From Myxococcota bacterium (GTDB taxonomy: Bacteria > Myxococcota > JACRCW01), in NCBI GenBank assembly GCA_040752415.1, contig JBFMGU010000018.1, forward strand, positions 1 to 64,000: a stretch of DNA of 64,000 nucleotides. Reading direction: 5' to 3'. The notes beneath the pieces are model-generated. The model saw nothing but the letters and a program-made list of their open reading frames with translations, was not told where the DNA came from and ran no database searches. The translations under genes and the position numbers were made by a program. This document shows positions 39,031 to 58,407 of the stretch, in pieces. Numbering within the stretch: the stretch's first letter is position 1; every line of letters begins with the position of its first letter.

Positions 39031-39102
39031 GGGGCGTCCTCCAAATTGTCCCGCGCGCGCGGCCTCGCGTACCGTGATCAGCATCTCCACCCCCAAGGCA
39101 CC

Positions 39103-41004: not shown

Positions 41005-41016
41005 GAAGCGCGCGGC

Positions 41017-42246: not shown

Positions 42247-42248
42247 TC

Positions 42249-43256: not shown

Positions 43257-43289
43257 AACCCCCGTCACACGAATCCGCAGGAGGCTCAC

Positions 43290-43757
43290 ATGGAAACCGC
43301 ACGTCGCAAGATTGCCATCATCTGCTCCAAGGGAGGCCTCGACGAGGCATATCCCGCCCTCATCCTCGCCAACGCCGCGCGCATGTCCGGCATCGACTGC
43401 TTCGTGTTCTTCACGTTCTACGGCCTGGACGTCGTCACGGAGAAGAAGGTGGACCACCTGCACGTGAACATGGTGGGCAACCCCACCAGCCCGGTCCCCA
43501 CCATGCTCGCGGGACTGCCCGGCATGGAGAACTTTGCCGCGCGCATGATGCAGAAGAAGATGGATGAGCTGGGCATGCCCCCCGCGCGCGAGATGATCAA
43601 GACGCTGGAGGAGTCCGGCGCGGAGCTCTACGGCTGCCAGCTGGCCATGGAGATGATGAAGCTGGAGAAGAAGGACCTCCTGCCCCAGGTCAAGGACGTC
43701 ATCACCGCGGGCGACTTCTACGAGCTGTCCGAGGGCGCGCAGATCATCTTCGTGTGA
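43290..43757 (+). CDS. DsrE/DsrF/DrsH-like sulfur carrier
   Basis: SKGGLDEAYPALILA, FFTFYGL, YGCQLAMEM, GAQIIFV; GGAGG RBS. Confidence 0.88.
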   Translation: METARRKIAIICSKGGLDEAYPALILANAARMSGIDCFVFFTFYGLDVVTEKKVDHLHVNMVGNPTSPVPTMLAGLPGMENFAARMMQKKMDELGMPPAREMIKTLEESGAELYGCQLAMEMMKLEKKDLLPQVKDVITAGDFYELSEGAQIIFV

Positions 43758-44097
43758 ACGTGGGTGAAGCGCGCCTGTCTCGTCGAGTGGTGCGGCCCGT
43801 GTGGTGCAATGTGCGGTGATCTGGTCGGCGTCACCGCTGCCAATGGCCTCGAGATCCACGGTAGATTCCGCAGGTGTGGCATCGGTGAGACGTCGGCCTC
43901 ACCGGTGGGCGCGGTTGTCGGAAGATGACCGTCACCGGTGCGCGCGTGGCGCCGCCGCTCACACGGGGGAACGGAGACGACAAAGTCCCAGGCAGCTCTG
44001 CGTTCGAGTTCAAGCTTGGGGCACTTTGGGACGATTTGTTGACCTGGGTTGAAGGCCAACCATAGGGTGCAAACGTACTGGTCCGGCGAGGGGTGCC

Positions 44098-44706
44098 ATG
44101 TCTTCCCTGACTTCCACGTTGAAGTGGCGTGAGACCGAGGCCCTGGCCGCGCGGCGCGACCTGTGCACCGCCTCCGACACCATCCGCGGCATGTTCATCA
44201 CCAACGCGCTGGAGTGTGTGCGGCGGGTGGTCAGCCCGGTGGCCGTCACCGAGATCGAGGCGGAGCTGGGCATCAAGGAGAAGCCGGCCATGCTGGCCAA
44301 GGTGCCCATGCGCAGCTTCATTGAAGTGCAGATGGCCGCCGCCAAGCGCATGGCCCCCGTCGTGGGAAGTCCGGAGGACGCGCTGGCCCGGATTGGTGGC
44401 GCCAGCCTGGAGATCTTCTTCGACTCCATTGCCGGCAAGACCATGAAGCTCCTGGCCGGCGACGACCCGCAGCGCCTGCTCAGCGCCGCGCCCAACGGCT
44501 ACCAGTTCGCGGTGACCTTCGGGTCGCGCAGCTACGAGAAGACCGGGCCGCGCTCCGGCGTGTTCACCCTTGAGCGTGAGCTCCTGGGGCCCTGCCACAC
44601 CCTGGGCACATTCGACGCCGCCATCTTCGGTGTGCACGGCATGCACCCGGACATGAAGGTGGAGCAGTCCGACGTGGCCACCTTCAAGATCCTCGTCAGC
44701 TGGTGA
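44098..44706 (+). CDS. DUF2378 / TIGR02265-type myxobacterial protein
   Basis: DTIRGMF, LARIG...FFDSIAGKTM, DPQRLL...PNGYQFAVTFGSR, ends VSW. Confidence 0.8.
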   Translation: MSSLTSTLKWRETEALAARRDLCTASDTIRGMFITNALECVRRVVSPVAVTEIEAELGIKEKPAMLAKVPMRSFIEVQMAAAKRMAPVVGSPEDALARIGGASLEIFFDSIAGKTMKLLAGDDPQRLLSAAPNGYQFAVTFGSRSYEKTGPRSGVFTLERELLGPCHTLGTFDAAIFGVHGMHPDMKVEQSDVATFKILVSW

Positions 44707-44714
44707 GCGGAGCC

Positions 44715-45515
44715 ATGCGGTTCCAGGGCCGGGTGGCGCTTGTCACCGGAGGGAACAGCGGAATCGGGCTCGCGTGCGCGCAGCGCCTGGCGGCGGAGGG
44801 TGCGCGCGTGGTGGTGGCCTGTCGCAACGTTGCCACCGGGGAACAGGCGGTCTCCACCATCCAAGCCGCCGGCGGCGCCGCGCGCGCGGTGCGCATGGAC
44901 GTCACCCGCCCCGACGAGGTCACCGCCGCGCTGGCCAGCGTGGTTGCCGTCGAGGGCGCGCTGCACGTGCTCATCCACTCCGCGGGCGGTGGCGGAGAGC
45001 TGCAGGCGGCCACCGAGATCGACGAGGCGCAGTGGTCCACGCTCCTGGACGTGAACCTGGGCGGCGCCTGGCGCGTGAGTCGCGCGGCGCTCCCCGTGCT
45101 GGCGCGCAGCGGCGGCGGCGCGGTGGTGCTCATCTCCTCCATTGCCGCGCTGGACACCGTGCCGCGCGCGGCGCCGTACATGGCCGGCAAGAGTGGCATG
45201 CTTGGACTGACCCGCAGCATGGCCTTGGATTACGCGGTCCACGGCGTGCGCGTGAACTGCGTCTGTCCCGCGTTCGTGGAGACGCCGTTGCTCAGCCGCG
45301 TCATCGAGAGTCAGCCGGATGCGCGCAAGGCGCGGCTGGCCTGGACGCGGCTGCATCCGCTGGGGCGCCTGGGTCGTCCCGACGACGTGGCCGCGGCCGC
45401 CACCTTCCTGGCCGCGCCCGAGGCCGGCTGGATCACGGGCGTGGCCTTGCCGGTGGACGGCGGCTACCTGCTGGGTCGCGTGGCCGGCGCGCCGCCCGAT
45501 CTGTCAGGCTCATGA
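44715..45515 (+). CDS. SDR oxidoreductase (FabG-like) in the PKS operon
   Basis: TGGNSGIG, YMAGK, VRVNCVCP, ITG..LPVDGG; alternative GTG 44703 overlaps the previous stop. Confidence 0.9.
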   Translation: MRFQGRVALVTGGNSGIGLACAQRLAAEGARVVVACRNVATGEQAVSTIQAAGGAARAVRMDVTRPDEVTAALASVVAVEGALHVLIHSAGGGGELQAATEIDEAQWSTLLDVNLGGAWRVSRAALPVLARSGGGAVVLISSIAALDTVPRAAPYMAGKSGMLGLTRSMALDYAVHGVRVNCVCPAFVETPLLSRVIESQPDARKARLAWTRLHPLGRLGRPDDVAAAATFLAAPEAGWITGVALPVDGGYLLGRVAGAPPDLSGS

Positions 45516-45574
45516 GCCAGGATTTCCTCAAGCGATCAGTGTGCGGATAGTCTGACCGGGACGAGGCGCTGGGA

Positions 45575-48500
45575 ATGGGTGAGCCGATTGCGGTGGTGGG
45601 CCTGGGTTGCGTGCTTCCCGACGCGCTGAACGTCCGCGCGTTCTGGGACAACACGCTGCGTGGTCACTCCGCCATCCGCGAGCTGCGCGGCGGGGGCTGG
45701 GAATGGACGCGCTACCACGACCCCAACCCCTCCGCGCCCGACCGTGCGCACTGCATCCTGGGCGCGCGCGTCGAGGATTGGGTGTTTGACTGGCGTCGCT
45801 TCCGCATGCCGCCCGCCGAGGCGGAGAGCATCAACCCGCTGCAGTTGATGGTGTTGGATGCCGGTACGCAGGCGCTGGAGGGCGTGAAGGTCATTCCGCG
45901 CGAGCGGGCCGGATTGTTCCTGGGCGGCACCGGGCTCGGCTGGCAGCGCGACAGCGGTCTGCGCATCCGCATGCAGGACCTCGTCGACGCGCTGGAGCAG
46001 AGCGAGGCGTATGGTCGGCTGGCGCCCGCGCAGCGGCAGGCGGTGCTGGAGGGCGCGCAACGCAGCCTGGATGCGCGGCTCAAGCCGGTGAGTGAGGACA
46101 ATGTCGTCGGGGCCAGCGCTTCCGTGGCGGCCGGGCGCATTGCCATGCACTTTGACCTCAAGGGCCTGCACTATTCGGTCGACGCGGGCTTTGCCAGCTC
46201 GTTGGCCGCGCTGGAGTGCGGCGTGCGCGCGCTGCGCGACGGGACGCTGGACCTCTCCGTGGTGGGCGGCGTCAGCGAGCTGCTCTCGCCGCTGGAGCTG
46301 GTGGCGTTCTCCAAGATGGGCGGGCTGGCGCAGCAGAAGGTGGCGCCCTTTGACGCTTCCGCCGAGGGCACGCTGCTCGGGGAGGGCACGGTCATCTTCG
46401 CGCTCAAGCGCCTCTCCGACGCCGAGCGCGACGGCGACCTCATCCACGCCGTGGTGCTGGGCGTGGGCGGCTCCTCCGACGGACACGGCAAGGCCCTGGT
46501 GGCGCCCCGTGCCGAGGGGCAGGCGCTGGCCATGCGGCGCGCGTACGACGACGGCGAGGTCTCTCCGCACACCGTGGGCTTCGTGGAGTGTCACGCCACC
46601 GGCACCCAGGTGGGCGACGCCAGTGAGGTGCGCGCGTTGGCCCGCATCTACGCGGGCGGCGCGAGGAGCAGCGTGGCGCTCGGGTCGGCCAAGCCTTTCG
46701 TGGGGCACCTGCGCGCCGCGGCGGGCGCGGTGGGCATGTTGCGCGCCGTGCTGGCGTTGCAGCACCGCACCGTGCCGGCGCAGATCGCGTTCAAGACGCC
46801 CAATCCCGCGCTGGAGCTGGACAGCACGCCGTTCTACGTGCCCACCGCCAACACGGCGCTCACGTCGCTGGGTGACGCGGAGCTGCCGCGCGCGGCGGTG
46901 AGCGCATTTGGTTTTGGTGGCAACAACTTCCACGCGGTGCTGGAGGCCCATGCCGGTGCGCGCCCGCGCCCCGCGCGTCGGAAGGTGTCCACCGACGAGC
47001 CGATTGCCGTGGTGGGCATGGGCGGCATCTTCCCCGGCGCGGAAGGTGTCGACGCGTTCTGGCGCATGATCATGGACGGGCGCGACACCACGCGTGAGGT
47101 TCCCAAGGACCGCTGGGACATCGACCGGCACTGGTCCAACGACCCCACCCGCCTGGACCGCAGCTACAGCCGACTGGGTTGCTTCCTGGAGAAGCTGCCC
47201 TCGCTCGAGGAGCGCTGGCGCATCCCGCCCTCCGCGGCGGAGAGCCTGGACCCCAGCCACCTGCTGGTCTTGCGCTGCGCCGAGGAGGCGCTCAGCGACG
47301 CGCGCTACACGCCGGGACGCTGGGACAAGGACCGCGTGGCGGTGATGCTGGCCTTCCTTCCCTACCAAGGGAAGAAGTTCCTGGCCGACATCCGCGTGAA
47401 CTTCCAGGAATACGCCGCGGACCTCGCCCACGCGCTCAAGCAGGCCGGCGTCTCCGACGAGCAGGCCCACGCGGTGCTCGCCGAGACGGAGGTGCGCTTC
47501 AAGCGTGCGCTGCCGGGCATCAGCGAGGACACGCTCACCGGCTACCTCGGCAGCGTCAACGCCGCGCGGGTCACCAAGCTGCATGACTTCCACGGCCCGC
47601 ACTTCGTCGTCGACAGTGCGTGCGCCTCCACCCACGCCGCGCTGCACGCCGCCGTGTCCGCGCTGCGCCACCGCACCGCCGACGTGGTGCTCTCCGGTGG
47701 CGTGTGGTGCGACATGATGCCGGAGTTCTTCATCGCGGCGTGTCGCTTCAACGCGCTCTCCGCCACCGGCATCACCCCGTTCTGCGCGCGCGCCGACGGG
47801 TTCATCCCCGGAGAGGGCGCCGGCATCTTCGTGCTCAAGCGCCTCTCCGACGCCGAGCGTGACGGAGACAAGGTCCACGCCGTCATCCGCGCGGTGGCCG
47901 GGTCCTCAGACGGGCGTGGTCGCAGCGTGTTGGCGCCCAACCCCGCGGGCGAGGCCATGGCCATGACGCGCGCGTTGGAAGCGGCGGGCGTGGACGCCAC
48001 CAGCGTGGACTACGTGGAGTGCCACGGCACCGGGACCGCGCTGGGCGACGTGGTGGAAGTGGACGCGTTGACGCGCGCGTATGGAAAGGGGCGCCCGCGG
48101 CCGCTGCTCATCGGCTCGGTGAAGAGCAACATTGGACACCTGAACGCCGCCGCCGGTGCGCCCGCGCTCATCAAGACCGCCCTGGCGGTGCGCGACGGAG
48201 TCATTCCTCCCTCGCTGAAGGTGGAGACGCCCAACCCGCAGATTGATTTTGCCTCTGGGCCCGTCAGCGTTGTCACCACGGCGCGACAGTGGGTCATGGC
48301 GCCGGGGCAGCCGCGTCGCGCTGGCATCAGCGGATTTGGCGTGGGCGGCACCAACATGCACCTGGTGGTGGAGCAGTACCTGCCGCAGGGGGCGCAGAAG
48401 CCACGGGCGGAGTCGGCGGTCGTCGTCACGGAGGCAGCCGGGCCGCAGATTGCCGTGGTGGCGGGTGCGGACCTGCAGGGTTGCGTGGAGGCGTTGGGCG

Positions 48501-51500
48501 CGCTGGCCACGGAGCAGCGTGATGCGGCACCGGGCGCGTTTGCCATGGCGCTGCAGCGCACCCACACCACGCCGCCGCGCGGGCCCGACCGGGTGCGCGT
48601 GGCCATCGTGGCCAGCACGCCCGTCGAGCTTTTCAAGCGTCACACGCTGCTGCAGTCCGCGGTGCGCAACGGGCATGACCTGGCGTTGCTGCGCCAGCAG
48701 GGCATCTGCGTGGGGATGCTGGACCCGTCCCTGAAGGTGACGGTGGCCTTCCCCGGCCAGGGTCCCCAGTACGTGAACATGCTGCGCGAGGCGGCGGCGC
48801 GTTTCCCCACGCTGCGCGAGGTGCTGCAGCGCGTGGACGTGGCCTACCAGCGGCTGGCGGGTCGCACGCTGACCAGCGCGTTCATCGTCGAGGACGCCAG
48901 CAATTGGCAGCAGCGTGACGAGGACATCCACTGCGCCGTGTTTGCCGTGAACTGCGCGCTGTACGAGCTGTTGCGCGCGCACGGGCTCAAGGCGGACAGC
49001 GTGCTGGGCCAGAGCGCCGGCGAGCTCTCCGCGCTGGTGGCGGCGGGCGTGCTCTCGCTGGAGGACGGACTGGGTGCGGTGCGGGAGCGCACCCTCAGCG
49101 TGCTTGCGCTGCAGACCGCTGACCCGGGGCAAATGGTGGCGCTGGCCTGCTCGGCGCAGACCGCGGCGCGACTGATGGAGGGACTGCCCGGCTACGCGGC
49201 GCTGGCGGCGGACAACGCGCCCAACGCGTGCATCGTCTCCGGCGCGCGCGCGGCCATGACGGCGTTGGTGGAGCGCTGTCAGCAGCAGGGCGTGGAGGCC
49301 ACCGTGCTGGCGGTGAGCCACGCGTACCACTCGCAGATGATTGCCGGCGCGCGGGACCGCTACCTGCGCCTGCTGCGCACGCTGACCTTCCGGGAGCCGC
49401 AGTGCGAGATCTTCTCGACGATCACCGGGGGCTCCCTGGCGGGCATGCGCGCGGCGGATTGGCCCGAGCACCTGGCCAGCCAGTTCGTGCTGCCGGTGGC
49501 GCTGCGTCAGGCGGTGGAGGCGGCGTACGCGTCGGGGACGCGCATGTTCGTGGAGTGTGGACCCAAGTGGCCGCTGACCACGTTCATTGGCGAGATCCTG
49601 GAGGGACGTCCCCACGCCGCGCTGGCCACCATCCATCCCAAGGTGGGGGAGGTGGAGCTGCTGCAGCGTGCGCTGGCGTTCCTGCACGTGCACGGCGTGG
49701 CCTCGCTGGCGCCTGCGGCCCCCACGGTGCTCACCGCTCCTCCCGCCCCGACGAGCTCCTTGCCGCCCATGCCCGCCACCGGCCCCACCATCAGCGTGCC
49801 CCCGCCCGGCGACGTGGTGGCGCTGTTGCGCTCCATGCGCACGCTGATTGACGGGTTCCTCCAGCCGCTGGAGTCCGCCGCGCCGGGACGTGCGCCCAGT
49901 GGCGTGGAGGCGGTGCAGGCCGTGCAGGCCATGCGCGAGGCGGTGCAGGTGTTGGAGCGCGTATCCACCCCGCCGCTTGGCGTCAGTCGGCCGCCCGCGC
50001 CGGCCTCGCAGCGACCCGCTCCGTCGAGCCCGCCCGCCGCGCCCGCCCCGGTGACGACGGGAACACCCGCTCCCGGACCCGACCACGCGGCCACGGTGCT
50101 GGCGCGCCTCAAGGCCAACGTCATCCGCAAGACGGGCTATCCCGCGGAGATGCTCGAGGACAATCTCGACCTCGAGGCGGACCTGGGCATCGACACCGTC
50201 AAGCAGGTGGCCATCCTGGGCGAGACGCGCGCCCAGCTGGGCGTGGCCGCGGATCCCAACTTCAAGCTGCGCGACCACAACACGCTGCGCAAGATGGCGC
50301 AGTATCTCGTCGGCAGACTGGGTGGTGCCGTCGCGGTTGCGCCCGCGCCCGCACCCGTGGCTCCGGCTCCCGTCGTGGCGCCGTCGCCGGCGCAGGGCGG
50401 GGAGCGTGAGGTGGTGCGCGCGCAGGTGTTGGCCCACGTCATGCGCAAGACGGGCTACCCGGCGGAGATGCTGGAGGAGAATCTCGACCTCGAGGCGGAC
50501 CTGGGCATCGACACCGTCAAGCAGGTGGCCATCCTGGGCGAGGTGCGCGTCCAGCTTGGCCTGCCGCAGGACCCCACCTTCAAGCTGCGCGACCACAACA
50601 CGCTGGCCAAGGTGGTGGACCACTTCACGCGTCGCCTGCAGGCGCAGTCGCGCCCCGTCCCGCCGCCAGCCATCACCACCCCCGCGCGGGGCACGCCCGC
50701 TCCCGCCGCCGCGCGCCAGGTGCGCCAGGAAGCGCTGGACCAGGTGCTGGGCACGTTGAAGGCCAACGTGATGCGCAAGACCGGCTACCCGCCGGAGATG
50801 CTGGAGCTGGACCTCGATCTCGAGGCGGACCTGGGCATCGACACCGTCAAGCAGGTGGCCATCCTCGGCGAGACGCGCGCCCAGCTCGGGCTTGCCACGG
50901 ACCCCAACTTCAAGCTGCGCGAGACCAACACGCTGCGCAAGATGGGCCAGTATCTCGTCGGGAGACTGGCGGGCGCGGCGCCGCGTGATCGCACACCCGC
51001 GCGCACCGAGATTCCGGTGGTCCCCGCTCCCGCGCCGGCTCCTTCCGCGCCCGTGGTGTCGTCGGAAGAGACCTGGAACCAGGTGCACCAGCTGGTCATC
51101 CAGCAGCTCATTCGCAAGACGGGCTACCCCGCGGAGATGCTCGAGCTGGACCTCGACCTCGAGGCGGACCTGGGCATCGACACCGTCAAGCAGGTGGCGA
51201 TCTTTGGCGAGGTGCGCGCGCAGCTGAAGCTGGCCCAGGATCCCAACTTCCGCCTGCGCGACCACACCACGCTGCGCAAGATCATCAGCCACTTCGCCTC
51301 GCGCCTGCAGCCCGCCACCCCCCCGCCCACAACGACGGCGCCCAGCGCACCTCCTCCCGTGGCAGCGACTCCGGCGGCACCCGAGTTCCAGCGCGTGGGC
51401 GAGCCCGTGCACGTGACCTCCCGCGCGCCAGGCACCGCGTTCATCTGCGGCGGCGCCGAGCTGCGGGTGGTCACCATGGCGCGCTGCGCGCAGATCATGA

Positions 51501-52282
51501 TGGACGCCGTGGTGAAGGGCTCCGGCGGCGTCCCCGTGGCGTTGCTGGGTTTGCGCTCCGGCGCGCCCGCGCTCGTCGAGGATACCGGGGCGTTGCTGCT
51601 GGAGGTGCAGGCGCGCGCGGAGAGCGGCCAGGTGGAGACGCGCCTGGTCTCCGCCTCCGGCGCGGTGCACTTCGTGGGTCGGGTGGAGCTGGCCGCGGAA
51701 CGTCCGCAGGCTGCGTTGAACCTGGCTTCTCCCGCCGTGCGCGTCGGCGTGGACCCGCGCAACCGCGCGCGCAATGGCGTGGCGCTGTTGCAGGCGGTGG
51801 GGCGGGTGGATCCGGGCTCTCGCACGCCGCCAGTGGTGGACTGGGCGCAGCAGCTCCGCTTTGACCTGCTGGCCGGTGGCATGACCGTGCCGGAGTCCGC
51901 GGGCAATCCCGCCGCGTGCATCGCCGCCGCGCTCGACGGTGCCGGAGCGATCGCCTCGTTCGGCTGGTACGCGCTCACCGGGGCGTTCCACGTGCCCTGC
52001 GCGCTGGAGAGCCTGCGCTTCCACGCCCTCCCAAGCCCGGGGGCGGAGCTGCGTTTCCACGTGCAACTGGCGCCGTTCGCCCAGGGAGCGTGGCACGCGC
52101 ATGCGCTGATTCTCGACGGAGAAGGCCGGGTGCTGGGGGAGCTGCAGGGCTTGACCGGTGTGCGCGTGGGACCCACTGCGGGGGCGGTGTGGCAGGGGTT
52201 GGACGTCGACGGAACGGCCGTGGCGTGGCAACGCTTCACGCAACAGCTTTCCGGACCCGTGATCGATGGTGAGGACCATTGA
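45575..52282 (+). CDS. Iterative type I PKS / PfaA-related subunit A: KS(Cys->Phe)-KS-AT-ACPx4(Thr)-degenerate DH
   Basis: KS1 DAGFASS/ECHATGT/GHL; KS2 DSACAST/ECHGTGT/GHL; AT FPGQG, GQSAG, HAYH; four LEADLGIDTVKQ; C-terminal hot-dog-like region lacking the HxxxGxxxxP motif. Confidence 0.92.
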   Translation: MGEPIAVVGLGCVLPDALNVRAFWDNTLRGHSAIRELRGGGWEWTRYHDPNPSAPDRAHCILGARVEDWVFDWRRFRMPPAEAESINPLQLMVLDAGTQALEGVKVIPRERAGLFLGGTGLGWQRDSGLRIRMQDLVDALEQSEAYGRLAPAQRQAVLEGAQRSLDARLKPVSEDNVVGASASVAAGRIAMHFDLKGLHYSVDAGFASSLAALECGVRALRDGTLDLSVVGGVSELLSPLELVAFSKMGGLAQQKVAPFDASAEGTLLGEGTVIFALKRLSDAERDGDLIHAVVLGVGGSSDGHGKALVAPRAEGQALAMRRAYDDGEVSPHTVGFVECHATGTQVGDASEVRALARIYAGGARSSVALGSAKPFVGHLRAAAGAVGMLRAVLALQHRTVPAQIAFKTPNPALELDSTPFYVPTANTALTSLGDAELPRAAVSAFGFGGNNFHAVLEAHAGARPRPARRKVSTDEPIAVVGMGGIFPGAEGVDAFWRMIMDGRDTTREVPKDRWDIDRHWSNDPTRLDRSYSRLGCFLEKLPSLEERWRIPPSAAESLDPSHLLVLRCAEEALSDARYTPGRWDKDRVAVMLAFLPYQGKKFLADIRVNFQEYAADLAHALKQAGVSDEQAHAVLAETEVRFKRALPGISEDTLTGYLGSVNAARVTKLHDFHGPHFVVDSACASTHAALHAAVSALRHRTADVVLSGGVWCDMMPEFFIAACRFNALSATGITPFCARADGFIPGEGAGIFVLKRLSDAERDGDKVHAVIRAVAGSSDGRGRSVLAPNPAGEAMAMTRALEAAGVDATSVDYVECHGTGTALGDVVEVDALTRAYGKGRPRPLLIGSVKSNIGHLNAAAGAPALIKTALAVRDGVIPPSLKVETPNPQIDFASGPVSVVTTARQWVMAPGQPRRAGISGFGVGGTNMHLVVEQYLPQGAQKPRAESAVVVTEAAGPQIAVVAGADLQGCVEALGALATEQRDAAPGAFAMALQRTHTTPPRGPDRVRVAIVASTPVELFKRHTLLQSAVRNGHDLALLRQQGICVGMLDPSLKVTVAFPGQGPQYVNMLREAAARFPTLREVLQRVDVAYQRLAGRTLTSAFIVEDASNWQQRDEDIHCAVFAVNCALYELLRAHGLKADSVLGQSAGELSALVAAGVLSLEDGLGAVRERTLSVLALQTADPGQMVALACSAQTAARLMEGLPGYAALAADNAPNACIVSGARAAMTALVERCQQQGVEATVLAVSHAYHSQMIAGARDRYLRLLRTLTFREPQCEIFSTITGGSLAGMRAADWPEHLASQFVLPVALRQAVEAAYASGTRMFVECGPKWPLTTFIGEILEGRPHAALATIHPKVGEVELLQRALAFLHVHGVASLAPAAPTVLTAPPAPTSSLPPMPATGPTISVPPPGDVVALLRSMRTLIDGFLQPLESAAPGRAPSGVEAVQAVQAMREAVQVLERVSTPPLGVSRPPAPASQRPAPSSPPAAPAPVTTGTPAPGPDHAATVLARLKANVIRKTGYPAEMLEDNLDLEADLGIDTVKQVAILGETRAQLGVAADPNFKLRDHNTLRKMAQYLVGRLGGAVAVAPAPAPVAPAPVVAPSPAQGGEREVVRAQVLAHVMRKTGYPAEMLEENLDLEADLGIDTVKQVAILGEVRVQLGLPQDPTFKLRDHNTLAKVVDHFTRRLQAQSRPVPPPAITTPARGTPAPAAARQVRQEALDQVLGTLKANVMRKTGYPPEMLELDLDLEADLGIDTVKQVAILGETRAQLGLATDPNFKLRETNTLRKMGQYLVGRLAGAAPRDRTPARTEIPVVPAPAPAPSAPVVSSEETWNQVHQLVIQQLIRKTGYPAEMLELDLDLEADLGIDTVKQVAIFGEVRAQLKLAQDPNFRLRDHTTLRKIISHFASRLQPATPPPTTTAPSAPPPVAATPAAPEFQRVGEPVHVTSRAPGTAFICGGAELRVVTMARCAQIMMDAVVKGSGGVPVALLGLRSGAPALVEDTGALLLEVQARAESGQVETRLVSASGAVHFVGRVELAAERPQAALNLASPAVRVGVDPRNRARNGVALLQAVGRVDPGSRTPPVVDWAQQLRFDLLAGGMTVPESAGNPAACIAAALDGAGAIASFGWYALTGAFHVPCALESLRFHALPSPGAELRFHVQLAPFAQGAWHAHALILDGEGRVLGELQGLTGVRVGPTAGAVWQGLDVDGTAVAWQRFTQQLSGPVIDGEDH
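50090..51310 (+). repeat. Four tandem ACP-coding repeats separated by Pro/Ala linkers
   Basis: CTCGAGGCGGACCTGGGCATCGACACCGTCAAGCAGGTGGC recurs four times at about 320-340 nt spacing. Confidence 0.92.
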
Positions 52283-55200
52283 TGAGCAAAGGCGGTGAGG
52301 CCCAACAACTCGCGGTGGTGGGCATGGCCTGCCGCCTTCCGGGCGCACCCAACCTGGAGGCGTTCTGGCGCCTGCTCGTCGAGGGCACGGTGGCGCTGGA
52401 GCCGCTGCAGCCCGACCGCTGGGATCCCGCCACCTACGCGGATGAGCTGCCCGACGGACGCGCGCAGAGCTTCCTGGGTGGCGTGTTGAAGGACTTCCGC
52501 GTCGACTTCGCCGCGCTGCACCTCCCGCCGCTGCAGACCGAGCGCCTGCACCGCATGGAGAAGGTGGCGGTGGCGACCATGACGGAGGCGCTGCGCGACG
52601 CCCAGGCACGCGGGGCCGCGTGGGAGGGGAAACGCGGGCAGATCTTCGTGGCGGCCAGCACGCTGGCTCCCGACACGCTCACCGATCACGGTCGCCGCAT
52701 CCGACGCTACGAGCTGGCCGCGCCCATCCGCGAAGCGTTGGACGCCGTGGTGCCGCAGCAGGCCAACGACGCCGACGAGATTGTCCAGCAGCTCTTCAAC
52801 GTGGCCGCGCCGCCGGTGGACCCGGACTCCCTGCAGAGCACCGCCAGCCTCATCGGCGGTCGCGTGGCGCACCTGTTCAACTTCGACGGTGGCCACCTCG
52901 CCGTCGACGGAGGCATGTCCTCCAGCCTGGCCGCGCTGCACCGTGCCGCGGTGGCGCTGCAGACGGGTGCGTGTGATCTCGCGCTGGTGTGCGGCCTGTC
53001 TCCGCTCCTCACCGCGTCGTCGGTGCTGGCGTTCGCGCACCACGGCCTGCTCACCACCGACCGGCCCCGTCCCTTCCAGCCCGACGCCAATGGCACCACG
53101 CTGGGAGAGGGCGCGGGCGCGCTGGTGTTGATGCGCCGTGACGAGGTGCCCGCGGAGCGGACCTACGCGGTTCTCGAGGGACTGGGCAGCGGACACGCCA
53201 GCAGCGCCAGCGCGCTCAAGGACATCACCGCGCAGGCGGCCACGGCGGCGTTGGCGCAGGCAGGCTGTGGTCCCGACGAGGTGGCGGTGGTGGAGTCCCG
53301 CGCGTGCGGCGTGGCCGGCGAGGATTCCGCGGAGTCCGAGGGGCTGGCCATTGCGTACGGCAGTGCCAGCCGCGCCGCGCCCCTGCTCGTCACCTCGACG
53401 GTAGGCCAGCTGGGCTTCCTGCAGGCCGCGGGCGGGACCGTGGCGCTGCTCAAGGCGTGCCTGGCCATTTCCCGTGGGAGCTGGCCGGCCTCTGCCGTGG
53501 CGGGCGCACCCCGTCGCGTGGGCGTCAGCGACGCGGGATTGGGGCCGTTGGCCTACCACGCCATCCTCGCGCATCCGTCGGTGGAGACGGTGGCGACGGA
53601 GAAGCGCGTGGTGCGTCGTCGTCCGGAGCCGGACGCGGTTGCGGTGGTGGGCGCGGGACTCCTGGTGCCGCAGGCCAATGACGTGGAGACGTTCTGGCGC
53701 AACGTGCTCAACAAGGTGGACGCCATCTCCGACCTGCCGGCGGACCGCTTCGACGTCGACCGGCTGGTGGGCGCCAGCCCGGACGCGGGCGCGGTGCTCA
53801 AAACGCGGCTCGCCGGTGTCGTCGACATTCCCGCGTACGACCCGCTGCGCTTTGGTCTCCCGCCCCACACCGCCGCGGCCATGGACCCCGCGGTGGCGCT
53901 CTCCCTGCTCAGCGCGGAGCAGGCGCTGGCCCAGGCGCAGTACGGACCGGGAAAGTGGGATCCCCGACGGGTGCAGGTGGTGATGGGGCAGCTGCCCATG
54001 CGCGCCAAGGAAATGCAGATGGAGGCGCGGCTGCTCTTTGCCGGGCACCTGGTGCTCTCCGCGGAGGCGCTGCGGGAGGCGGGCCTGGCCGATGGCGACG
54101 TGCAACGCGTCATCCAGCTGGCGCGCGAGCTCTACAACCGCCGCGTCCCGCCCATCTCCCCGGAAATGCTCGAGGCGCGCACCGGCCTCACCTGCGCCCA
54201 GCGCGTGGCCAATGCGTGGGGCTTCCACGGCGGCGCGCTTTCCGTCGACGCGGCCTGCGCCTCGTCGTTGGCGGCGGTGCGCATCGGGGTGGAGTCGCTG
54301 CGACTGGGCGAGGCCGACGTCGTGGTGGCGGGCGGTGTGGCCTACAACCTGCTGCCGGAATACTACATCAGCCTCAGCATGCTCGGCGTGCTCTCGCCGC
54401 GCGGGGCGCCCCCGTTTGACGTCGGTGCGGATGGGTTCGTGCCCGCGGAGGGCGGTGGCGCGGTGGTGCTGCGTCGCCTCAAGGATGCGCAGCAGGCCGG
54501 CGAGAAGGTGCTGGCGGTCATCCGTGGCGTGGGCAGCGCGGGCGACGGGCGCAGTCCCTCCATCTACGCACCCAGCGGCGAGGGCTACCGTCGCGCCATC
54601 CAGCGCGCGTTGCAGTCCGCGGGCGTCGGCGCGTCGGACATTGACTACGTGGAGGCACACGGCGGCGGAACGCGACGTGGCGACCAGGCGGAGACCGAGG
54701 CCTACGCCGCCATCTACGGCCAGCGCGACGCCGGGGCTCCCATGGTGGTGGGCACGGTGAAGTCGCAGATTGGCCACCAGAGCTCCGCGGCGGGAATCGT
54801 GGGGCTCATCAAGACGGCGCTGGCGCTCGAGCGTCGCGTCATCCCGCCCAGCAACTGCGACGCGCCTCCCCACGCCGAGCTGCCCTTCGGCCGCGTGCCG
54901 CTGGACCTGGCCGCCGAGCCGCGCCCCTGGACCACCTCCGGTCGACGTCGACGCGCCGGCGTGAGCGCATTTGGCCTGGGCGGCGTGAACTACCACGTCA
55001 TCCTCGAGGAGCCGGAGCGCAACCCGCGAGATGAGGTGACACCCGAGCAGCAACCGCCCGCGCACCTGCCCAGCCGTGGCGCCCGCGCGGACCGCTTCCT
55101 CGTCGAGCTGGTGCCGGTGGCACTGCCGGAGCGCCCGCCGCGGCTGAACCTGTTGGGCCGTCACGTCGTCGTGGTGGCGGACGCGGGAAAGCTCTGGCCC

Positions 55201-57588
55201 GCGTTCCAGGCGCGCCTGACCCAGCGCGGCGCCGTTGTCTCCATCCTGCCCGCCGGTACTCCCGACCTGGAGGCGGCCATCCGTGATGCGCGCGCCGCCC
55301 ACGGCGTGGTGCACGGCGTGTTGGACCTCAGCACCTTTGCTCCGCCGTCGGAGTCCCCGCCCACCTCGGACGCGCTGGCCCGGCAGGTGCTGGAGGTGCA
55401 GGCGCGCGCTTTCACCGTGTTGCGCGCGGTCTACCCGGACCTGGCCGACGCCGCGCCCCAGACCGCGTTCTACGGCGCGGTGACGTCGATGGGTGGCGAC
55501 CTGGGCCTCATGGTTCGCACTGGTGGCAACGTGCTGGGCGCCACGATGTTGGGGTGGGCCAAGGGCCTCAAGCAGGAGCTGCCCGGCGTGGTGGCCAAGG
55601 GCCTGGACTTTGACCCGCACCAACGTGCCGACGAGGTGGCGACCCAGGCGTTGCGCGAGATCGAGGATGCCAACCCGCGCATGGAGGTGGGCTTTGCCGG
55701 GCGCCGCTTTGGCGTGAACCTCCGACGGGCGAGCTTCCCCGAGGAGGCGCCCGCGGTCAGCGGCATCACGCGTGGCGACGTGTACGTGTTCTCCGGTGGC
55801 GGCCGCGGCGTGGTGTTCGAGTGCGCGTGCGCGCTGGCGCGCCAGGGGGCCATTGCCGTCGTCACCGGCCGCACCGCGCCGCCGCGCGGCGACGAGTCCT
55901 GGCTGCACCTCGACGAGGCCGCGTTTGCCGCGTACCGCACCGAGGAGATGGCGCGACGTCGCCGCGCGGATCCCACGCTCACCCCCGCGCGCTTTGCCCA
56001 GGAGTTCGACAACCTGGTGCGCCAACGCGAGCTGTTCCGCAACCTGCAGCGCGCCCGGGCCCAGGAGCTCCCGCTGCACTACGAGGTCTGCGACGTCACC
56101 GACCGCGCGCAGGTGGACGCGCTGGTGGCGCGCGTGGTGGCCAGCCACGGGCGCGTCGACGGGCTCATCCACGGCGCCATGGTGGAGTGGTCGCGCAGCC
56201 TGCCGTCCAAGTCGCCGCAGATCGTCGAGCGCACCATGGCCGCCAAGGTGGTGGGGCTCATCCAACTCGTCGAGGCGCTGCGGGAGGAGAAGCTCGGCAC
56301 CATCCTGTGCTTCGGGTCGGGCGCGGGGCGGTTCGGCAACCGCGGCCAGTCCGACTACTGCGCGGCCAATGCGCAGATGGCGGCGCTGCTACCCGTGCTG
56401 GCGGCGCGTCATCCCGCACGACCGCGCGCCATGACGGTGGATTGGACCGCGTGGCAGGAGGTGGGCGCCGCGGTGCAGAACCCCGACGTGGCGCGGCTGG
56501 TGGAAGCCACCGGCGTGACCGCCATCCGCCCGCAGGAGGGGACCTACTGGTTCCTGCGTGAGCTCACCGCGGCCGACGAGGGCGAGTCCGTCATCTTCGA
56601 GGAGCGCATGCTCCATGACTGGCCCACGCTGGGCAGCGGCGGCGAGGGCAGCGGGGAGGACGCCGTGCTCCTCGACGACCGCGGCATGCCATTGGTGCCC
56701 GGTGAGTGGCCGCTGGTCGACCGCGTGCTGCAGCGCGAGGAGGGCCGGGTCCGCTTTGCGCGTCGTCTCGAGGTGGACAAGGACGCGTTCCTGGATCAGC
56801 ACCGCCTGTACCGCGTGCCCATCGTCCCGGCCACGTTCGGCTGCGAGATCCTCGCCGAGGCCGCCGCGCTGTGCTCCCCGGGCTGGGATGTGGCCGAGGC
56901 GCACGACGTGGTCATTGACGTGCCCATGAAGCTGTTCCGCGAGCAGCCGCTGCTCATCCGCGCCTCCGCCACCGTGGTGGAGGAGAGTGGCGACGTGCGC
57001 GTGGTGCAGGCGGAGACGCATTCCCACCTGTTCCTCAAGGGGCGGCCGTTGGAGGAGCGCACGCATCACCGCGGTCGCTTCCTGCTGCGGAGACAGCGCC
57101 AGCCCGCGTCCAAGGTGGCCTTCCCAGACGTGCCCGGCGTGGTGCGCTCACGCTCGTTCTTCCACCTGGCCAAGGATCCCGTGACGCTGGGGCCGCTGTT
57201 CTGTCGCGCGGAGTGGATCCGCGTCACCGTGGATTCCGTGGTGGGAACCGTGCGTGCACCCCGCCAGCGCGACATCCTGGCCCGCACCGCCTATCCCGTG
57301 TTCCAGGTGGACCCGCTCCTGATGGACGCCGCGTTCCAGGTTGCCGCCAACTGGGACGGACACCACCACGGCAACGTCTCCATCCCCGTCGGCGTGGGCA
57401 AGCTGCTCTTCGGTCGCACGCGGGGGCGCGGAGAAGCGGCGCGTGTGCTGGCCACGGTGCGCCAGGTGGCCAATCCCGACGTGGTCTACGACATCATGGT
57501 GGCCGGCGAGAACGACGACCTCCTGATGCAGATTGGCGGCCTGCGCCTGCGTCGCGTCAGCCCCGCCGACGATCCCTCCGAGGCATGA
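52282..57588 (+). CDS. Type I PKS subunit B: degenerate KS-KS-KR-DH
   Basis: KS3 DGGMSSS/ESRACG/GFL; KS4 DAACASS/EAHGGGT/GHQ; KR SGGGRGV...GRFGNRGQSDYCAAN; DH FLDQHRLYRVPIVP and DPLLMDAAFQ; TGATG coupling. Confidence 0.92.
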   Translation: MSKGGEAQQLAVVGMACRLPGAPNLEAFWRLLVEGTVALEPLQPDRWDPATYADELPDGRAQSFLGGVLKDFRVDFAALHLPPLQTERLHRMEKVAVATMTEALRDAQARGAAWEGKRGQIFVAASTLAPDTLTDHGRRIRRYELAAPIREALDAVVPQQANDADEIVQQLFNVAAPPVDPDSLQSTASLIGGRVAHLFNFDGGHLAVDGGMSSSLAALHRAAVALQTGACDLALVCGLSPLLTASSVLAFAHHGLLTTDRPRPFQPDANGTTLGEGAGALVLMRRDEVPAERTYAVLEGLGSGHASSASALKDITAQAATAALAQAGCGPDEVAVVESRACGVAGEDSAESEGLAIAYGSASRAAPLLVTSTVGQLGFLQAAGGTVALLKACLAISRGSWPASAVAGAPRRVGVSDAGLGPLAYHAILAHPSVETVATEKRVVRRRPEPDAVAVVGAGLLVPQANDVETFWRNVLNKVDAISDLPADRFDVDRLVGASPDAGAVLKTRLAGVVDIPAYDPLRFGLPPHTAAAMDPAVALSLLSAEQALAQAQYGPGKWDPRRVQVVMGQLPMRAKEMQMEARLLFAGHLVLSAEALREAGLADGDVQRVIQLARELYNRRVPPISPEMLEARTGLTCAQRVANAWGFHGGALSVDAACASSLAAVRIGVESLRLGEADVVVAGGVAYNLLPEYYISLSMLGVLSPRGAPPFDVGADGFVPAEGGGAVVLRRLKDAQQAGEKVLAVIRGVGSAGDGRSPSIYAPSGEGYRRAIQRALQSAGVGASDIDYVEAHGGGTRRGDQAETEAYAAIYGQRDAGAPMVVGTVKSQIGHQSSAAGIVGLIKTALALERRVIPPSNCDAPPHAELPFGRVPLDLAAEPRPWTTSGRRRRAGVSAFGLGGVNYHVILEEPERNPRDEVTPEQQPPAHLPSRGARADRFLVELVPVALPERPPRLNLLGRHVVVVADAGKLWPAFQARLTQRGAVVSILPAGTPDLEAAIRDARAAHGVVHGVLDLSTFAPPSESPPTSDALARQVLEVQARAFTVLRAVYPDLADAAPQTAFYGAVTSMGGDLGLMVRTGGNVLGATMLGWAKGLKQELPGVVAKGLDFDPHQRADEVATQALREIEDANPRMEVGFAGRRFGVNLRRASFPEEAPAVSGITRGDVYVFSGGGRGVVFECACALARQGAIAVVTGRTAPPRGDESWLHLDEAAFAAYRTEEMARRRRADPTLTPARFAQEFDNLVRQRELFRNLQRARAQELPLHYEVCDVTDRAQVDALVARVVASHGRVDGLIHGAMVEWSRSLPSKSPQIVERTMAAKVVGLIQLVEALREEKLGTILCFGSGAGRFGNRGQSDYCAANAQMAALLPVLAARHPARPRAMTVDWTAWQEVGAAVQNPDVARLVEATGVTAIRPQEGTYWFLRELTAADEGESVIFEERMLHDWPTLGSGGEGSGEDAVLLDDRGMPLVPGEWPLVDRVLQREEGRVRFARRLEVDKDAFLDQHRLYRVPIVPATFGCEILAEAAALCSPGWDVAEAHDVVIDVPMKLFREQPLLIRASATVVEESGDVRVVQAETHSHLFLKGRPLEERTHHRGRFLLRRQRQPASKVAFPDVPGVVRSRSFFHLAKDPVTLGPLFCRAEWIRVTVDSVVGTVRAPRQRDILARTAYPVFQVDPLLMDAAFQVAANWDGHHHGNVSIPVGVGKLLFGRTRGRGEAARVLATVRQVANPDVVYDIMVAGENDDLLMQIGGLRLRRVSPADDPSEA

Positions 57589-58310
57589 GCACCTGCGTCC
57601 TGGCCACGCGCGTCGTGACCGAGGTGGACGCCCTCGAACGCGAGCTCGCCGAGCTGGAGCAGCGCCCCGTCTTCGCGCGCGGCACCGTCAAACGCCGCGG
57701 GGAGCACGCTGCCGGTCGCCTCGCCGCGCACCATGCGCTCACGCTGTTGCGCGGAGCGGGAGAGCGTCGGGCCATCCTCACCGCGGAAGGGCCGGAGCAG
57801 GGGCGACCGCGCGTCATCCAGCTCCCGCACGGCCAGGACCTCGACGTCACCGTGTCCATCACGCACGCGGATGGCCTGGCCGTTGCACTGGCGTGCGAGG
57901 TGGCGGCGGGGTTGGACCTCGTCACGCTTGAGGACCATGGCGAGGCGTTTGCGCGTGAGGCCTTTGCGCCCGGTGAGCTGGCGGCGTGGCGTGGCTTGTT
58001 CTCCCACGACGTCCTGGCGACGTGCGCCGCGTTTGCCTTCAAGGAGAGCGTGCTCAAGTGGTTGCGGGTTGGGATGGGCTTGTCGCTGCAGGGCCTGCGT
58101 GTCCTCCCGCGCAGCCTGGACCGCCGCACCGCGCCCTCCACCCTCCGCCTCGACGTGGAAGGAGCTGGAACACCCTGCCCGGAGCTGGCCGGATGGCTCT
58201 GGACGGAGCACACGCGGGTCCTGGCGCTGGTGTCGGAGGATCACCGCTTGCGCATCCTGGAGCCCGCGGGAGGCCTTCGTGGGTACTTCGGCTCGGCTAC
58301 GGGCGCATAG
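57585..58310 (+). CDS. 4'-phosphopantetheinyl transferase superfamily protein
   Basis: AGRLAA, GRP, VSITHA, GLDLV, FAFKESVLK; ATGA overlap with the PKS-B stop. Confidence 0.85.
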   Translation: MSTCVLATRVVTEVDALERELAELEQRPVFARGTVKRRGEHAAGRLAAHHALTLLRGAGERRAILTAEGPEQGRPRVIQLPHGQDLDVTVSITHADGLAVALACEVAAGLDLVTLEDHGEAFAREAFAPGELAAWRGLFSHDVLATCAAFAFKESVLKWLRVGMGLSLQGLRVLPRSLDRRTAPSTLRLDVEGAGTPCPELAGWLWTEHTRVLALVSEDHRLRILEPAGGLRGYFGSATGA

Positions 58311-58357: not shown

Positions 58358-58407
58358 GCAGTTGCATCAACCCTGCGTAACTAGGTGGGCACGTGGGAGG
58401 GAGCGTC

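What the first reader, a model, noticed from the sequence alone, without database searches (positions are those of the whole stretch)
50090..51310. All four ACP domains of the PKS have threonine at the phosphopantetheine site
Seen: each ACP reads LEADLGID-T-VKQ (ACC codons at 50195, 50513, 50843, 51182; Thr1541/1647/1757/1870). ACP1-3 contain no Ser at all; ACP4 has Ser only in its last helix. No other ACP is encoded in the operon. Known: PfaA-type ACPs read LEADLGID-S-IK and the Ser is the phosphopantetheine acceptor. Inference: four copies that differ elsewhere but all keep Thr, in an intact operon with its own PPTase, argue against decay or sequencing error. This may be a carrier system primed on Thr. 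I recall similar GIDT motifs in unannotated PKSs but know of no characterisation; novelty needs a literature check.
Basis: partly seen in the sequence, partly recalled or inferred. Interest (0 to 1): 0.93.

Follow-up and report, generated by a model that had tools for sequence, protein, structure and literature searches.

The report
Carrier proteins with threonine attachment site
All four carrier domains of this polyketide synthase have threonine where studied carrier proteins have the serine that holds their cofactor arm, and hundreds of related synthases in bacteria and archaea keep the same threonine, which points to a way of attaching the cofactor that I did not find described.

Summary
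Gene 45575-52282 encodes four tandem ACP domains reading LEADLGIDTVKQVAI, with ACC (Thr) codons at 50195, 50513, 50843 and 51182. No other carrier was found in the operon.

It is not a local oddity. DTVKQ-type ACPs form one large, old lineage, separate from the canonical DSIKRVEIL PfaA type:
- At least 583 stretches occur in species genomes from at least 10 phyla, including archaea.
- The coding motif occurs in 105 of 401 genomes of the window's own phylum.
- Thr is almost invariant (777 T, 1 S, 1 A in the DTVKQ background), and all four Thr codons are used.

The same genome has two further Pfa-like clusters with normal Ser ACPs.

Thr-type synthases usually carry their own Sfp-type PPTase, found in 50 of 78 loci. 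In 12 cases the PPTase is fused into the same polypeptide, and in 11 of these the only ACPs detected were Thr-type. These PPTases keep their catalytic residues and form a branch separate from Ser-linked ones.

Best reading (about 0.6): true carriers primed on Thr. This is indirect and unproven. E. coli ACP S36T cannot be primed, so this would be new chemistry.

I found no description of it, but the dawenol PKS paper could not be read.

The parts
44703..45515 (+). SDR-family reductase gene directly upstream. Whether it belongs to the operon is uncertain.
   Evidence: Pfam adh_short_C2 E 1.5e-60; NCBIfam SDR/FabG-like. It ends 59 bases before the PKS gene starts.
45575..52282 (+). PKS gene 1 (P0001, 2235 aa): Cys-less KS-like domain, then KS, AT, four Thr-type ACPs and a DH-like domain.
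   Evidence: TIGR02813 omega_3_PfaA scores 1067.7 bits against a cut-off of 1010.1. The first KS-like domain reads DAGFASS where a KS has its active-site Cys; the second reads DSACAST (read).
50075..50338 (+). ACP1; Thr1541 codon ACC at 50195-50197.
   Evidence: AF2 mean pLDDT 90.4, with Thr as the first residue of helix II.
50393..50656 (+). ACP2; Thr1647 codon ACC at 50513-50515.
50723..50986 (+). ACP3; Thr1757 codon ACC at 50843-50845.
51062..51325 (+). ACP4; Thr1870 codon ACC at 51182-51184.
51320..52279 (+). C-terminal domain of P0001: PKS dehydratase/product-template-like double hotdog, not recognised by Pfam.
   Evidence: AF2 mean pLDDT 65.9. Foldseek against PDB gives E about 6e-10 to 1e-8 and TM about 0.5 to PKS DH and PT domains. 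The model confidence is moderate.
52282..57588 (+). PKS gene 2 (P0002): Cys-less KS-like domain, then KS, KR and DH. Its start overlaps the stop of gene 1 (TGATG).
   Evidence: It reads DGGMSSS (no Cys) and then DAACASS (read).
57585..58310 (+). Sfp-type 4'-phosphopantetheinyl transferase (241 aa). Its ATG overlaps the stop of gene 2 (ATGA).
   Evidence: Pfam ACPS 31.6 bits (cut-off 25) and 4PPT_N 29.4 bits (cut-off 27). Overlap shown. It sits in the Thr-linked PPTase branch. Predicted docking to ACP1 scores 0.90 against a best control of 0.05.

Best explanation
The four domains are working acyl carrier domains of an iterative, PUFA-synthase-like type I PKS. The synthase is laid out as [KS'-KS-AT-ACP4-DH'] + [KS'-KS-KR-DH] + PPTase, and I found no enoyl reductase in the genes scanned around it. 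They belong to an old, widespread ACP lineage (motif DLG[IV]DTVKQxExF) in which the cofactor-bearing Ser is replaced by Thr.

The most likely mechanism is that the co-encoded Sfp-type PPTase transfers 4'-phosphopantetheine from CoA onto the Thr hydroxyl at the start of helix II. The resulting thiol arm then carries malonyl and growing acyl chains as usual.

Shown: the sequence, the conservation, the fold position, the gene linkage and the fusion to PPTases.
Inferred: that Thr is the acceptor, and that the product is a polyene or lipid-like chain.
For: 1. Thr is kept in all 4 copies, in the orthologues of 2 related genomes, and in 17 of 17 aligned domains. Among 903 ACP-domain hits it was 777 T, 114 S, 5 P, 5 gaps, 1 Q and 1 A. 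The S cases are almost all of the separate DSIKRVEI class. In the DTVKQ background there was only 1 S and 1 A. These counts include some duplicate loci.
2. All four Thr codons are used at the site (ACG 116, ACC 112, ACA 19, ACT 9; n=256). Ser (TCN) is one base change away from Thr, yet almost never occurs.
3. In a scan of metagenome contigs whose search patterns did not include the site, Ser-type PfaA ACPs gave 184 S, 0 T and 3 gaps in 80 loci. The two classes are therefore clean.
4. On an ACP tree built without the site and the next four columns, T against S needs 2 changes among 158 rows; 0 of 500 shuffles were as low.
5. A PPTase lies within the fetched DNA in 50 of 78 Thr loci. 12 open frames hold Thr-type ACPs and a PPTase domain in one polypeptide, and in 11 of them the only ACPs my profile detected were Thr-type (Pfam confirmation for 8 proteins).
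6. Thr-linked PPTases keep the GxD, W/FxxKE(A/S)xxK and SH motifs.
7. In three megasynthases a single Ser-bearing ACP sits beside the Thr-type ACPs (L064, L080, P0115). The one in P0115 has the full DTVKQ background (DSVKQ); the other two read DSVKR and DSIKQ. Two of these proteins (L080, P0115) have one fused PPTase, which suggests that the hydroxyl is the functional group.
8. The window PPTase docks on ACP1 with CoA and Mg: ipSAE 0.90 in 3 of 3 runs against a best control of 0.05. The runs agree in at least 97% of contacts and the partner pLDDT is at least 86. 116 of 157 solved complexes and 2 of 215 mismatched pairs reached this mark. ACP residues 40-42 and PPTase residues 113-114, 150 and 154 are in the interface. 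Solved PPTase-carrier complexes exist, so the pass may reflect likeness.
9. The rest of the synthase has intact KS, AT, KR and DH domains that need a carrier, and no Ser carrier was found on the contig.
Against: - No biochemical evidence exists here.
- Thr in place of Ser blocks priming in the one case I could read: E. coli ACP(S36T) 'cannot be post-translationally modified by 4'-PP' (PMC3340395, passages).
- The PPTase and ACP split rests on a single branch (1 change). Co-inheritance of whole clusters explains it as well as co-adaptation does, and there are no independent replicates.
- The PPTase residue that differs (Asn in 20 of 20 Ser-linked; Ser 49, Thr 4, Ala 1 of 54 Thr-linked) is the published FNxSH versus hShxH split. 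The hShxH class is there called PKS/NRPS-type, so it says nothing specific about Thr.
- The window's own PPTase has Val at the second acidic position of GxDxE (4 of 54 Thr-linked do) and is very far from solved PPTases (best E 0.014).
- The near-absolute preference for Thr over Ser is not explained by simple hydroxyl equivalence.
Confidence: 0.6

Rival explanations
1. The Thr-type domains are not primed at all. They are ACP-fold scaffolds or docking modules, and the synthase uses a Ser-ACP supplied in trans, for example the housekeeping AcpP.
For: E. coli ACP S36T cannot be primed. The genome has a normal AcpP (contig C88, DSL motif). Other Ser-less ACP paralogues noted elsewhere in this scan were read as non-carriers (unchecked notes).
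Against: The domains come in tandem arrays of 2-6 copies, as in PUFA synthases, and the whole DLG[IV]D-T context is invariant. A non-functional site would be expected to drift to A, G or N, but only 1 Ala was seen in the DTVKQ background. 11 megasynthases have a built-in PPTase and only Thr-type ACPs detected. No Ser carrier was found in 76 of the 78 Thr-type loci with my PfaA-type ACP profile. That profile would miss very different carriers.
Confidence: 0.12
2. Thr carries something other than the standard arm. Examples are an acyl-phosphopantetheine or other CoA-derived group transferred by the dedicated PPTase, or a direct O-acyl ester.
For: The strict preference for Thr over Ser, together with separate PPTase and ACP branches, hints at a requirement beyond a hydroxyl. 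Each Pfa-like cluster in this genome keeps its own PPTase.
Against: The PPTases keep the ordinary CoA- and Mg-binding motifs. The KS domains have the usual Cys-His-His residues, which fit thioester chemistry. There is no extra transferase in the operon. Nothing found here points to a different donor.
Confidence: 0.08
3. The Thr is an artefact: an assembly or sequencing error, or a decaying pseudogene.
For: None found.
Against: There are four independent copies with differing flanks, long open frames with coupled starts, and the same residue in hundreds of independent assemblies.
Confidence: 0.01

Closest known systems
PfaA tandem ACP domains of PUFA synthases (Shewanella, Vibrio, Photobacterium; motif LGIDSIKRVEIL)
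   Same: Same fold, and the same TGYP..ML...LDLEADLGID context up to the acceptor residue. They are also tandem arrays separated by Ala/Pro-rich linkers. P0001 passes TIGR02813. Two such Ser-type clusters lie in the same genome.
   Different: The acceptor is Thr, not Ser. Helix II reads TVKQ(A/V)ExF instead of SIKRVEIL. It is a separate branch on the ACP tree and is linked to hShxH-type rather than FNxSH-type PPTases.
'Secondary lipid synthase' Types R and S of Shulse & Allen 2011 (Koribacter, Solibacter, Elusimicrobium, Roseiflexus; Desulfobacterium autotrophicum)
   Same: My Thr-type loci from Acidobacteriota, Elusimicrobiota, Chloroflexota and Desulfobacteraceae match in three ways: the taxa, the layout (KS-MAT-...-ACP3-6-KR followed by a PPTase, sometimes with an ACC gene between) and the P1b' hShxH PPTase motif.
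   Different: The main text of that paper contains neither 'serine' nor 'threonine', and the products are uncharacterised. I matched by taxon and layout, not by sequence identity. Its Figure S3 and other supplements were not looked at.
Dawenol polyene PKS of Stigmatella aurantiaca Sg a15 (Osswald et al. 2014, J Biotechnol 191:54)
   Same: A PKS from that strain (P0010 = AIS92916.1) has five Thr-type ACPs followed by a KR. Another paper calls dawenol a 'PUFA-like PK'. If P0010 is part of that cluster, a Thr-type system makes a product in vivo.
   Different: That P0010 belongs to the dawenol cluster is my recollection; no call shows it. The paper is not held, so I do not know whether it comments on the Thr. 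The architecture differs from the window's, and identity over the ACP region is 43%.
Enediyne PKSE (KS-AT-ACP-KR-DH-PPTase, polyene-forming); recalled, not tested
   Same: The single-polypeptide Thr-type synthases of Thermoplasmatota and others have the same domain order, ending in a built-in PPTase. As there, I found no ER in the window's cluster.
   Different: PKSE has, as far as I recall, one Ser-type ACP. Here there are 3-6 Thr-type ACPs. No sequence comparison was made.
E. coli AcpP S36T mutant
   Same: The same substitution at the same structural position.
   Different: The mutant is not primed and is non-functional (PMC3340395). Here the Thr is the conserved natural state, beside dedicated PPTases.

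Membership tests
Acyl carrier protein / PP-binding domain (PF00550) | Profile match above the curated cut-off | tested here: met
   PF00550 scores 74.5 bits for P0001 against a cut-off of 20.8. ACP1 alone scores 30.7 bits.
Acyl carrier protein / PP-binding domain (PF00550) | Helical-bundle fold with the acceptor residue at the N-terminus of helix II | tested here: met
   AF2 mean pLDDT 90.4. Long helices at 2-20, 41-55 and 71-82, plus a short helical turn at 65-67. Residue 41 (Thr) opens helix II.
Acyl carrier protein / PP-binding domain (PF00550) | Conserved Ser in the D-S-(L/I) motif as the phosphopantetheine acceptor | tested here: not met
   Thr in 4 of 4 domains. It aligns with the Ser of 5y08 and 2kr5.
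Acyl carrier protein / PP-binding domain (PF00550) | Carries 4'-phosphopantetheine in the cell | not testable with these tools
   Needs mass spectrometry of the protein.
PfaA of PUFA synthases (TIGR02813) | Profile score above the cut-off | tested here: met
   1067.7 bits against 1010.1. The best stretch covers only KS-AT.
PfaA of PUFA synthases (TIGR02813) | KS-MAT-ACPn-KR in one protein, with PfaB/C/D (AT, KS-CLF-DH2, ER) partners | tested here: not met
   There is an extra Cys-less KS-like domain in front, and the KR lies on the second protein. No ER or FabA-like DH gene was found among the neighbours scanned.
PfaA of PUFA synthases (TIGR02813) | ACP motif LGIDSIKRVEIL | tested here: not met
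   It reads LGIDTVKQVAIL. A site-blind sample of the Ser type gave 184 S and 0 T.
Sfp-type PPTase (PF01648 + PF17837) | Profile matches above the cut-offs, plus the catalytic Asp, Glu and Lys | tested here: met
   31.6 bits against 25 and 29.4 against 27. D111, K153, E154, K158 and H94 are present. The second acidic residue of GxDxE is Val113.
P1b' (hShxH) PPTase group of Shulse & Allen Types M-T | hShxH motif instead of (F/S)NxSH | tested here: met
   The window PPTase reads VSITH. Thr-linked PPTases have Ser 49, Thr 4 and Ala 1 of 54 at the Asn position; Ser-linked ones have Asn in 20 of 20.
Dawenol-type PKS | Orthology with the S. aurantiaca cluster | tested here: inconclusive
   They share only the Thr-type ACP lineage (43% identity). 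The architecture differs, and the reference cluster was not available.

The most novel reading that the evidence does not exclude
O-phosphopantetheinyl-threonine is a natural, ancient and widespread cofactor linkage. A whole lineage of iterative PKS/FAS-like synthases in bacteria and archaea would use Thr-primed carriers served by their own PPTases. These PPTases can use Thr where AcpS cannot. This would give a carrier system that may be chemically tougher than, or insulated from, the cell's Ser-based carrier machinery.
Probability: 0.5. Interest if true: 0.9.

Novelty: new variant of a known kind. Interest (0 to 1): 0.8.

Why it matters
The Ser acceptor is treated as a universal, defining feature of carrier proteins in fatty acid, polyketide and non-ribosomal peptide synthesis. 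Motif-based annotation and active-site checks rely on it.

A large natural family with Thr would mean one of two things. Either some PPTases can prime a secondary alcohol, or these widespread synthases work without the classical arm. The first would be a new post-translational linkage. It would also offer a possible orthogonal tagging pair for biotechnology and would call for revised annotation rules.

The family includes whole-pathway megasynthases in Desulfobacteraceae, Acidobacteriota, Chloroflexota, Elusimicrobiota and Thermoplasmatota whose products are unknown. The question is directly testable with one small domain and one small enzyme, and cultured strains carry the system.

Tried and rejected
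Literature. They covered threonine combined with phosphopantetheine, ACP, PUFA synthase and tandem ACP, and motif strings such as LGIDT, LGVDT and GIDTVK. None returned a paper describing Thr at the attachment site.
- The papers with 'threonine' that I opened used it for kinases, an NRPS substrate, a helix-IV residue or the DST motif.
- Three papers were not held: the dawenol paper, Miyanaga 2008 on ArsA, and a PPTase review under an id I recalled. 'Not in print' therefore means only 'not found in these searches'.

Earlier notes of this scan. There was nothing near this place and nothing alike by sequence. A word search gave only other Ser-less ACPs.

A PPTase residue specific for Thr. The best candidate (Asn to Ser before the SH motif) turned out to be the published FNxSH versus hShxH split. 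I rejected it as a Thr signature.

Stand-alone Thr-type ACP proteins. 40 small hits were found, many of them on short contigs. I did not check them further, so this is not informative.

Not done:
- A scan of the phylum for the Ser motif, to match.
- RNA or read evidence of expression.
- Checking the acceptor residue in Shulse & Allen Types M-Q (for example ArsA), because named genomes cannot be addressed with these tools.
Full report
**1. The observation**

The window holds a long open frame, 45575-52282 on the + strand, whose translation is a 2235-residue type I PKS.
- Pfam finds two KS regions, an AT and PP-binding domains.
- The stretch 50050-51350 contains GACCTGGGCATCGACACCGTCAAGCAG four times.
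- The four domains differ elsewhere (59-75% identical to the first).
- ACP1-3 contain no Ser in the fold. ACP4 has Ser only at its edge and in the last helix.
- The Thr aligns with the cofactor Ser of two solved ACPs, PigH and PksA.
- In an AlphaFold2 model (mean pLDDT 90.4) it is the first residue of helix II, the position of the acceptor in carrier proteins.

**2. The operon**

- Gene 1 reads: KS-like without the active-site Cys (DAGFASS), KS (DSACAST), AT, four ACPs, and a 320-residue C-terminal domain. Pfam does not name this last domain, but it folds as a PKS dehydratase-like double hotdog (pLDDT 65.9, Foldseek E about 1e-9).
- Gene 2 (52282-57588) reads: KS-like without Cys, KS, KR, DH.
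- Gene 3 (57585-58310) is an Sfp-type PPTase.
- The genes overlap as TGATG and ATGA, so they are translationally coupled.
- An SDR gene lies just upstream. An FHA/sigma-54 activator and a Ser/Thr kinase lie downstream.
- I found no enoyl reductase in the genes scanned. By analogy with ER-less iterative PKSs, the product is probably a polyene-like chain. This is inference.
- PF00550 matches on the contig lie only inside gene 1.

**3. The same genome has ordinary Ser-type systems**

The assembly (11.0 Mb, 520 contigs, 96.8% complete) has 13 PF00550 matches.
- Two other Pfa-like clusters, on contigs C509 (5 ACPs) and C135 (3 ACPs), read LGIDSIKRVEIL.
- Of the four remaining matches, three have Ser at the motif position (DSL in AcpP on C88, DSL on C203, GSL on C2). 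The truncated match on C475 reads VNSA.
- Six PPTase-family matches exist, and one lies beside each of the three Pfa-like clusters.

The Thr is therefore not a habit of this organism. It is a property of this one synthase lineage.

**4. How widespread it is**

- Protein search. A search with residues 1500-1900 listed 120 proteins, the query included. Of the 119 others, 100 had only Thr-type ACPs, 18 only Ser-type, and 1 both. That search is seeded by shared words, so it favours Thr.
- Related genomes. The orthologous clusters in two related genomes keep Thr.
- Species genomes. The 78 loci kept come from Myxococcota, Thermodesulfobacteriota, Acidobacteriota, Elusimicrobiota, Chloroflexota, Gemmatimonadota, Actinomycetota, Bacillota, Rhodothermota, and the archaeal Thermoplasmatota and Methanobacteriota. 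They include the cultured strains Desulfospira joergensenii, Desulfocicer vacuolatum, Ectobacillus funiculus and Cystobacter fuscus.
- Own phylum. The exact coding pattern occurs in 105 of 401 sampled genomes (59 of 154 genera). The reversed control pattern occurs in none.

**5. Two clean classes**

- Among 903 ACP-domain hits the site was T 777, S 114, P 5, gap 5, Q 1, A 1. The contexts fall into DTVKQ(A/V)ExF and DSIKRVEI(L/M/F). This set includes some duplicate loci and the window twice.
- In the DTVKQ context I saw one Ser (P0115) and one Ala (P0117). Two further megasynthases (L064, L080) have one Ser-bearing ACP beside their Thr-type ones, with mixed motifs (DSVKR, DSIKQ).
- A control scan of metagenome contigs started from this genome's Ser-type ACPs and used patterns that do not cover the site. 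It gave 184 S, 0 T and 3 gaps in 80 loci.
- An ACP tree was built without the site and the following four columns. It used one domain per locus plus the window's four. I dropped duplicate loci L002-L005, L008 and L053, domains with more than 12 gaps, and domains with a residue other than S or T. It needs 2 S/T changes among 158 rows, and 0 of 500 shuffles were as low.
- At the site all four Thr codons occur (ACG 116, ACC 112, ACA 19, ACT 9). The amino acid, not the codon, is conserved.

**6. Link to PPTases**

- A PPTase lies within the fetched DNA of 50 of 78 Thr-type loci and 18 of 80 Ser-type loci. Many contigs are cut short.
- Twelve uninterrupted frames contain both Thr-type ACPs and a C-terminal PPTase domain. 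In eleven of them my profile found Thr-type ACPs only. Pfam confirmed the layout (ER)-KS-AT-ACP-KR-DH-PPTase for eight such proteins. A synthase that carries its own PPTase and only Thr-type carriers is the strongest argument here that these carriers are PPTase substrates.
- On a tree of 75 PPTase domains (54 Thr-linked, 20 Ser-linked, 1 unlinked from this genome), the two labels are separated by one branch (SH-aLRT 99; 0 of 500 shuffles as low). I had dropped a second frame of a frameshifted gene, an identical duplicate, and the two AcpS-like proteins.
- Both groups keep the catalytic motifs.
- The window's PPTase sits in a starred group of five with a Polyangia MAG, a related genome, a Nannocystaceae MAG and, oddly, Ectobacillus.

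**7. Limits of that link**

- One branch means one event. Whole clusters are inherited together, so the split does not by itself show that the enzymes are adapted to Thr.
- The sharpest difference is Asn in 20 of 20 Ser-linked PPTases against Ser 49, Thr 4, Ala 1 of 54 Thr-linked ones, two residues before the SH motif. This is exactly the P1b (F/S)NxSH versus P1b' hShxH split that Shulse & Allen reported in 2011 between their cluster Types A-L and M-T. They call the hShxH class PKS/NRPS-type (section 8 read). It is not a Thr signature.
- Their Types R and S match my Thr-type loci by taxa and layout (section 7 read; Pfam).
- Their main text does not contain the words serine or threonine.
- A 2016 review of bacterial PUFA genes speaks only of 'a serine residue of ACP' and has no 'threonine' (passages).

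**8. Predicted docking**

The window PPTase, ACP1, CoA and Mg gave ipSAE 0.90 in three runs against a best control of 0.05.
- The runs agree in at least 97% of contacts, and the partner pLDDT is at least 86.
- The mark was reached by 116 of 157 solved complexes and 2 of 215 mismatched pairs.
- The counts hold only roughly here, because my own alignments were used and ligands rode along.
- ACP residues 40-42 (Asp-Thr-Val) and helix II touch PPTase residues 113-114, 150 and 154 (Glu154 is the conserved KE Glu).
- Solved PPTase-carrier complexes exist, so this shows likeness to them. It does not show that Thr is modified.

**9. Why it is surprising**

In E. coli, ACP(S36T) is used as the standard unmodifiable control. 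[quoted passage not shown] A natural lineage that has fixed this very substitution, next to PPTases, contradicts the usual rule that the acceptor is always Ser.

**10. Mechanism and rivals**

I put about 0.6 on true carriers primed on Thr by the co-encoded PPTase. The rivals are:
- non-primed scaffold domains using a trans Ser-ACP: 0.12;
- a different group on Thr: 0.08;
- an artefact: 0.01.

What remains unexplained is why Thr is preferred so strictly over Ser. If only a hydroxyl were needed, more Ser would be expected, since it is one base change away.

**11. Prior knowledge**

- The gene families are known as uncharacterised 'secondary lipid synthases'.
- A Stigmatella aurantiaca Sg a15 PKS with five Thr-type ACPs is on record (AIS92916.1). 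I recall it as part of the dawenol polyene cluster (Osswald 2014), but no call shows this.
- That paper is cited in a paper I read but is not held. It may or may not mention the Thr.
- Ten literature searches found no description of a Thr acceptor.

I rate the finding a new variant of a known kind. There is perhaps a one-in-four chance that it has been noted somewhere I could not read.

Noticed in passing
window 51320-52279: The last 320 residues of PKS gene 1 have no Pfam match. They are predicted (pLDDT 65.9) to form a PKS dehydratase/product-template-like double hotdog. Homologues were found only in a few myxobacterial loci (L019, L026, L025, L020). I saw no clear HxxxGxxxxP motif by eye.
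   Followed up: partly
own genome contigs C509 (about 22500-37400) and C135 (about 37500-55000), held as L097 and L098: There are two more Pfa-like clusters in the same genome, with 5 and 3 canonical Ser-type ACPs (LGIDSIKRVEIL). Each has its own FNxSH-type PPTase. The C135 PPTase has Asn in place of the motif's His (FNLSN).
   Followed up: partly
L030:1079-12841, L056:1508-13231, L047:2999-14221, L075:3272-14743 and others: Single polypeptides of 3000-3900 residues have the order ER-KS-AT-ACP(Thr)n-KR-DH (Desulfobacteraceae) or (ER)-KS-AT-ACP(Thr)n-KR-DH-PPTase (Thermoplasmatota, Methanobacteriota, Myxococcota and other bacteria). Each is a complete iterative synthase in one protein, and some are in archaea.
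   Followed up: partly
L062:13633-19274, L070:13746-15377: Acetyl-CoA carboxylase genes (biotin carboxylase/BCCP and carboxyltransferase) lie directly beside Thr-type synthases and their PPTases in Acidobacteriaceae and Elusimicrobiota loci. Shulse & Allen noted the same for Koribacter.
   Followed up: no
P0010 residues 4-82; P0100; L003 and L015 (G035:C41): Dawenol-like myxobacterial PKSs have, besides their Thr-type ACPs, an extra ACP-like domain. Its motif is degenerate (such as GLGMTQEEL or DLGMTPEEI), with Gln or Pro at the acceptor position. It is probably a non-carrier ACP relic.
   Followed up: no
L023 (Ectobacillus funiculus JCM 11201, Bacillota): This locus has a window-type cluster ([KS'-KS-AT] + [KS'-KS-KR-DH] + PPTase, with one Thr-type ACP). 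Its PPTase groups with the window's myxobacterial clade (starred group of 5), which suggests transfer between phyla.
   Followed up: no
window 58393-60222 and 60238-61599: Directly downstream of the PPTase lie an FHA-domain sigma-54 activator and a Ser/Thr protein kinase with a cyclic-nucleotide-binding domain. They may regulate the cluster.
   Followed up: no
window 57585-58310, residue 113: The window's PPTase and its three closest relatives have Val, not Glu, at the second acidic position of the GxDxE metal motif (4 of 54 Thr-linked PPTases). Among Ser-linked ones, 6 of 20 have Gln there.
   Followed up: no
window 39046-40887: An ORF with DUF7305 and Stig1-like Cys-rich repeats lies upstream. 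It appears unrelated to the PKS.
   Followed up: no
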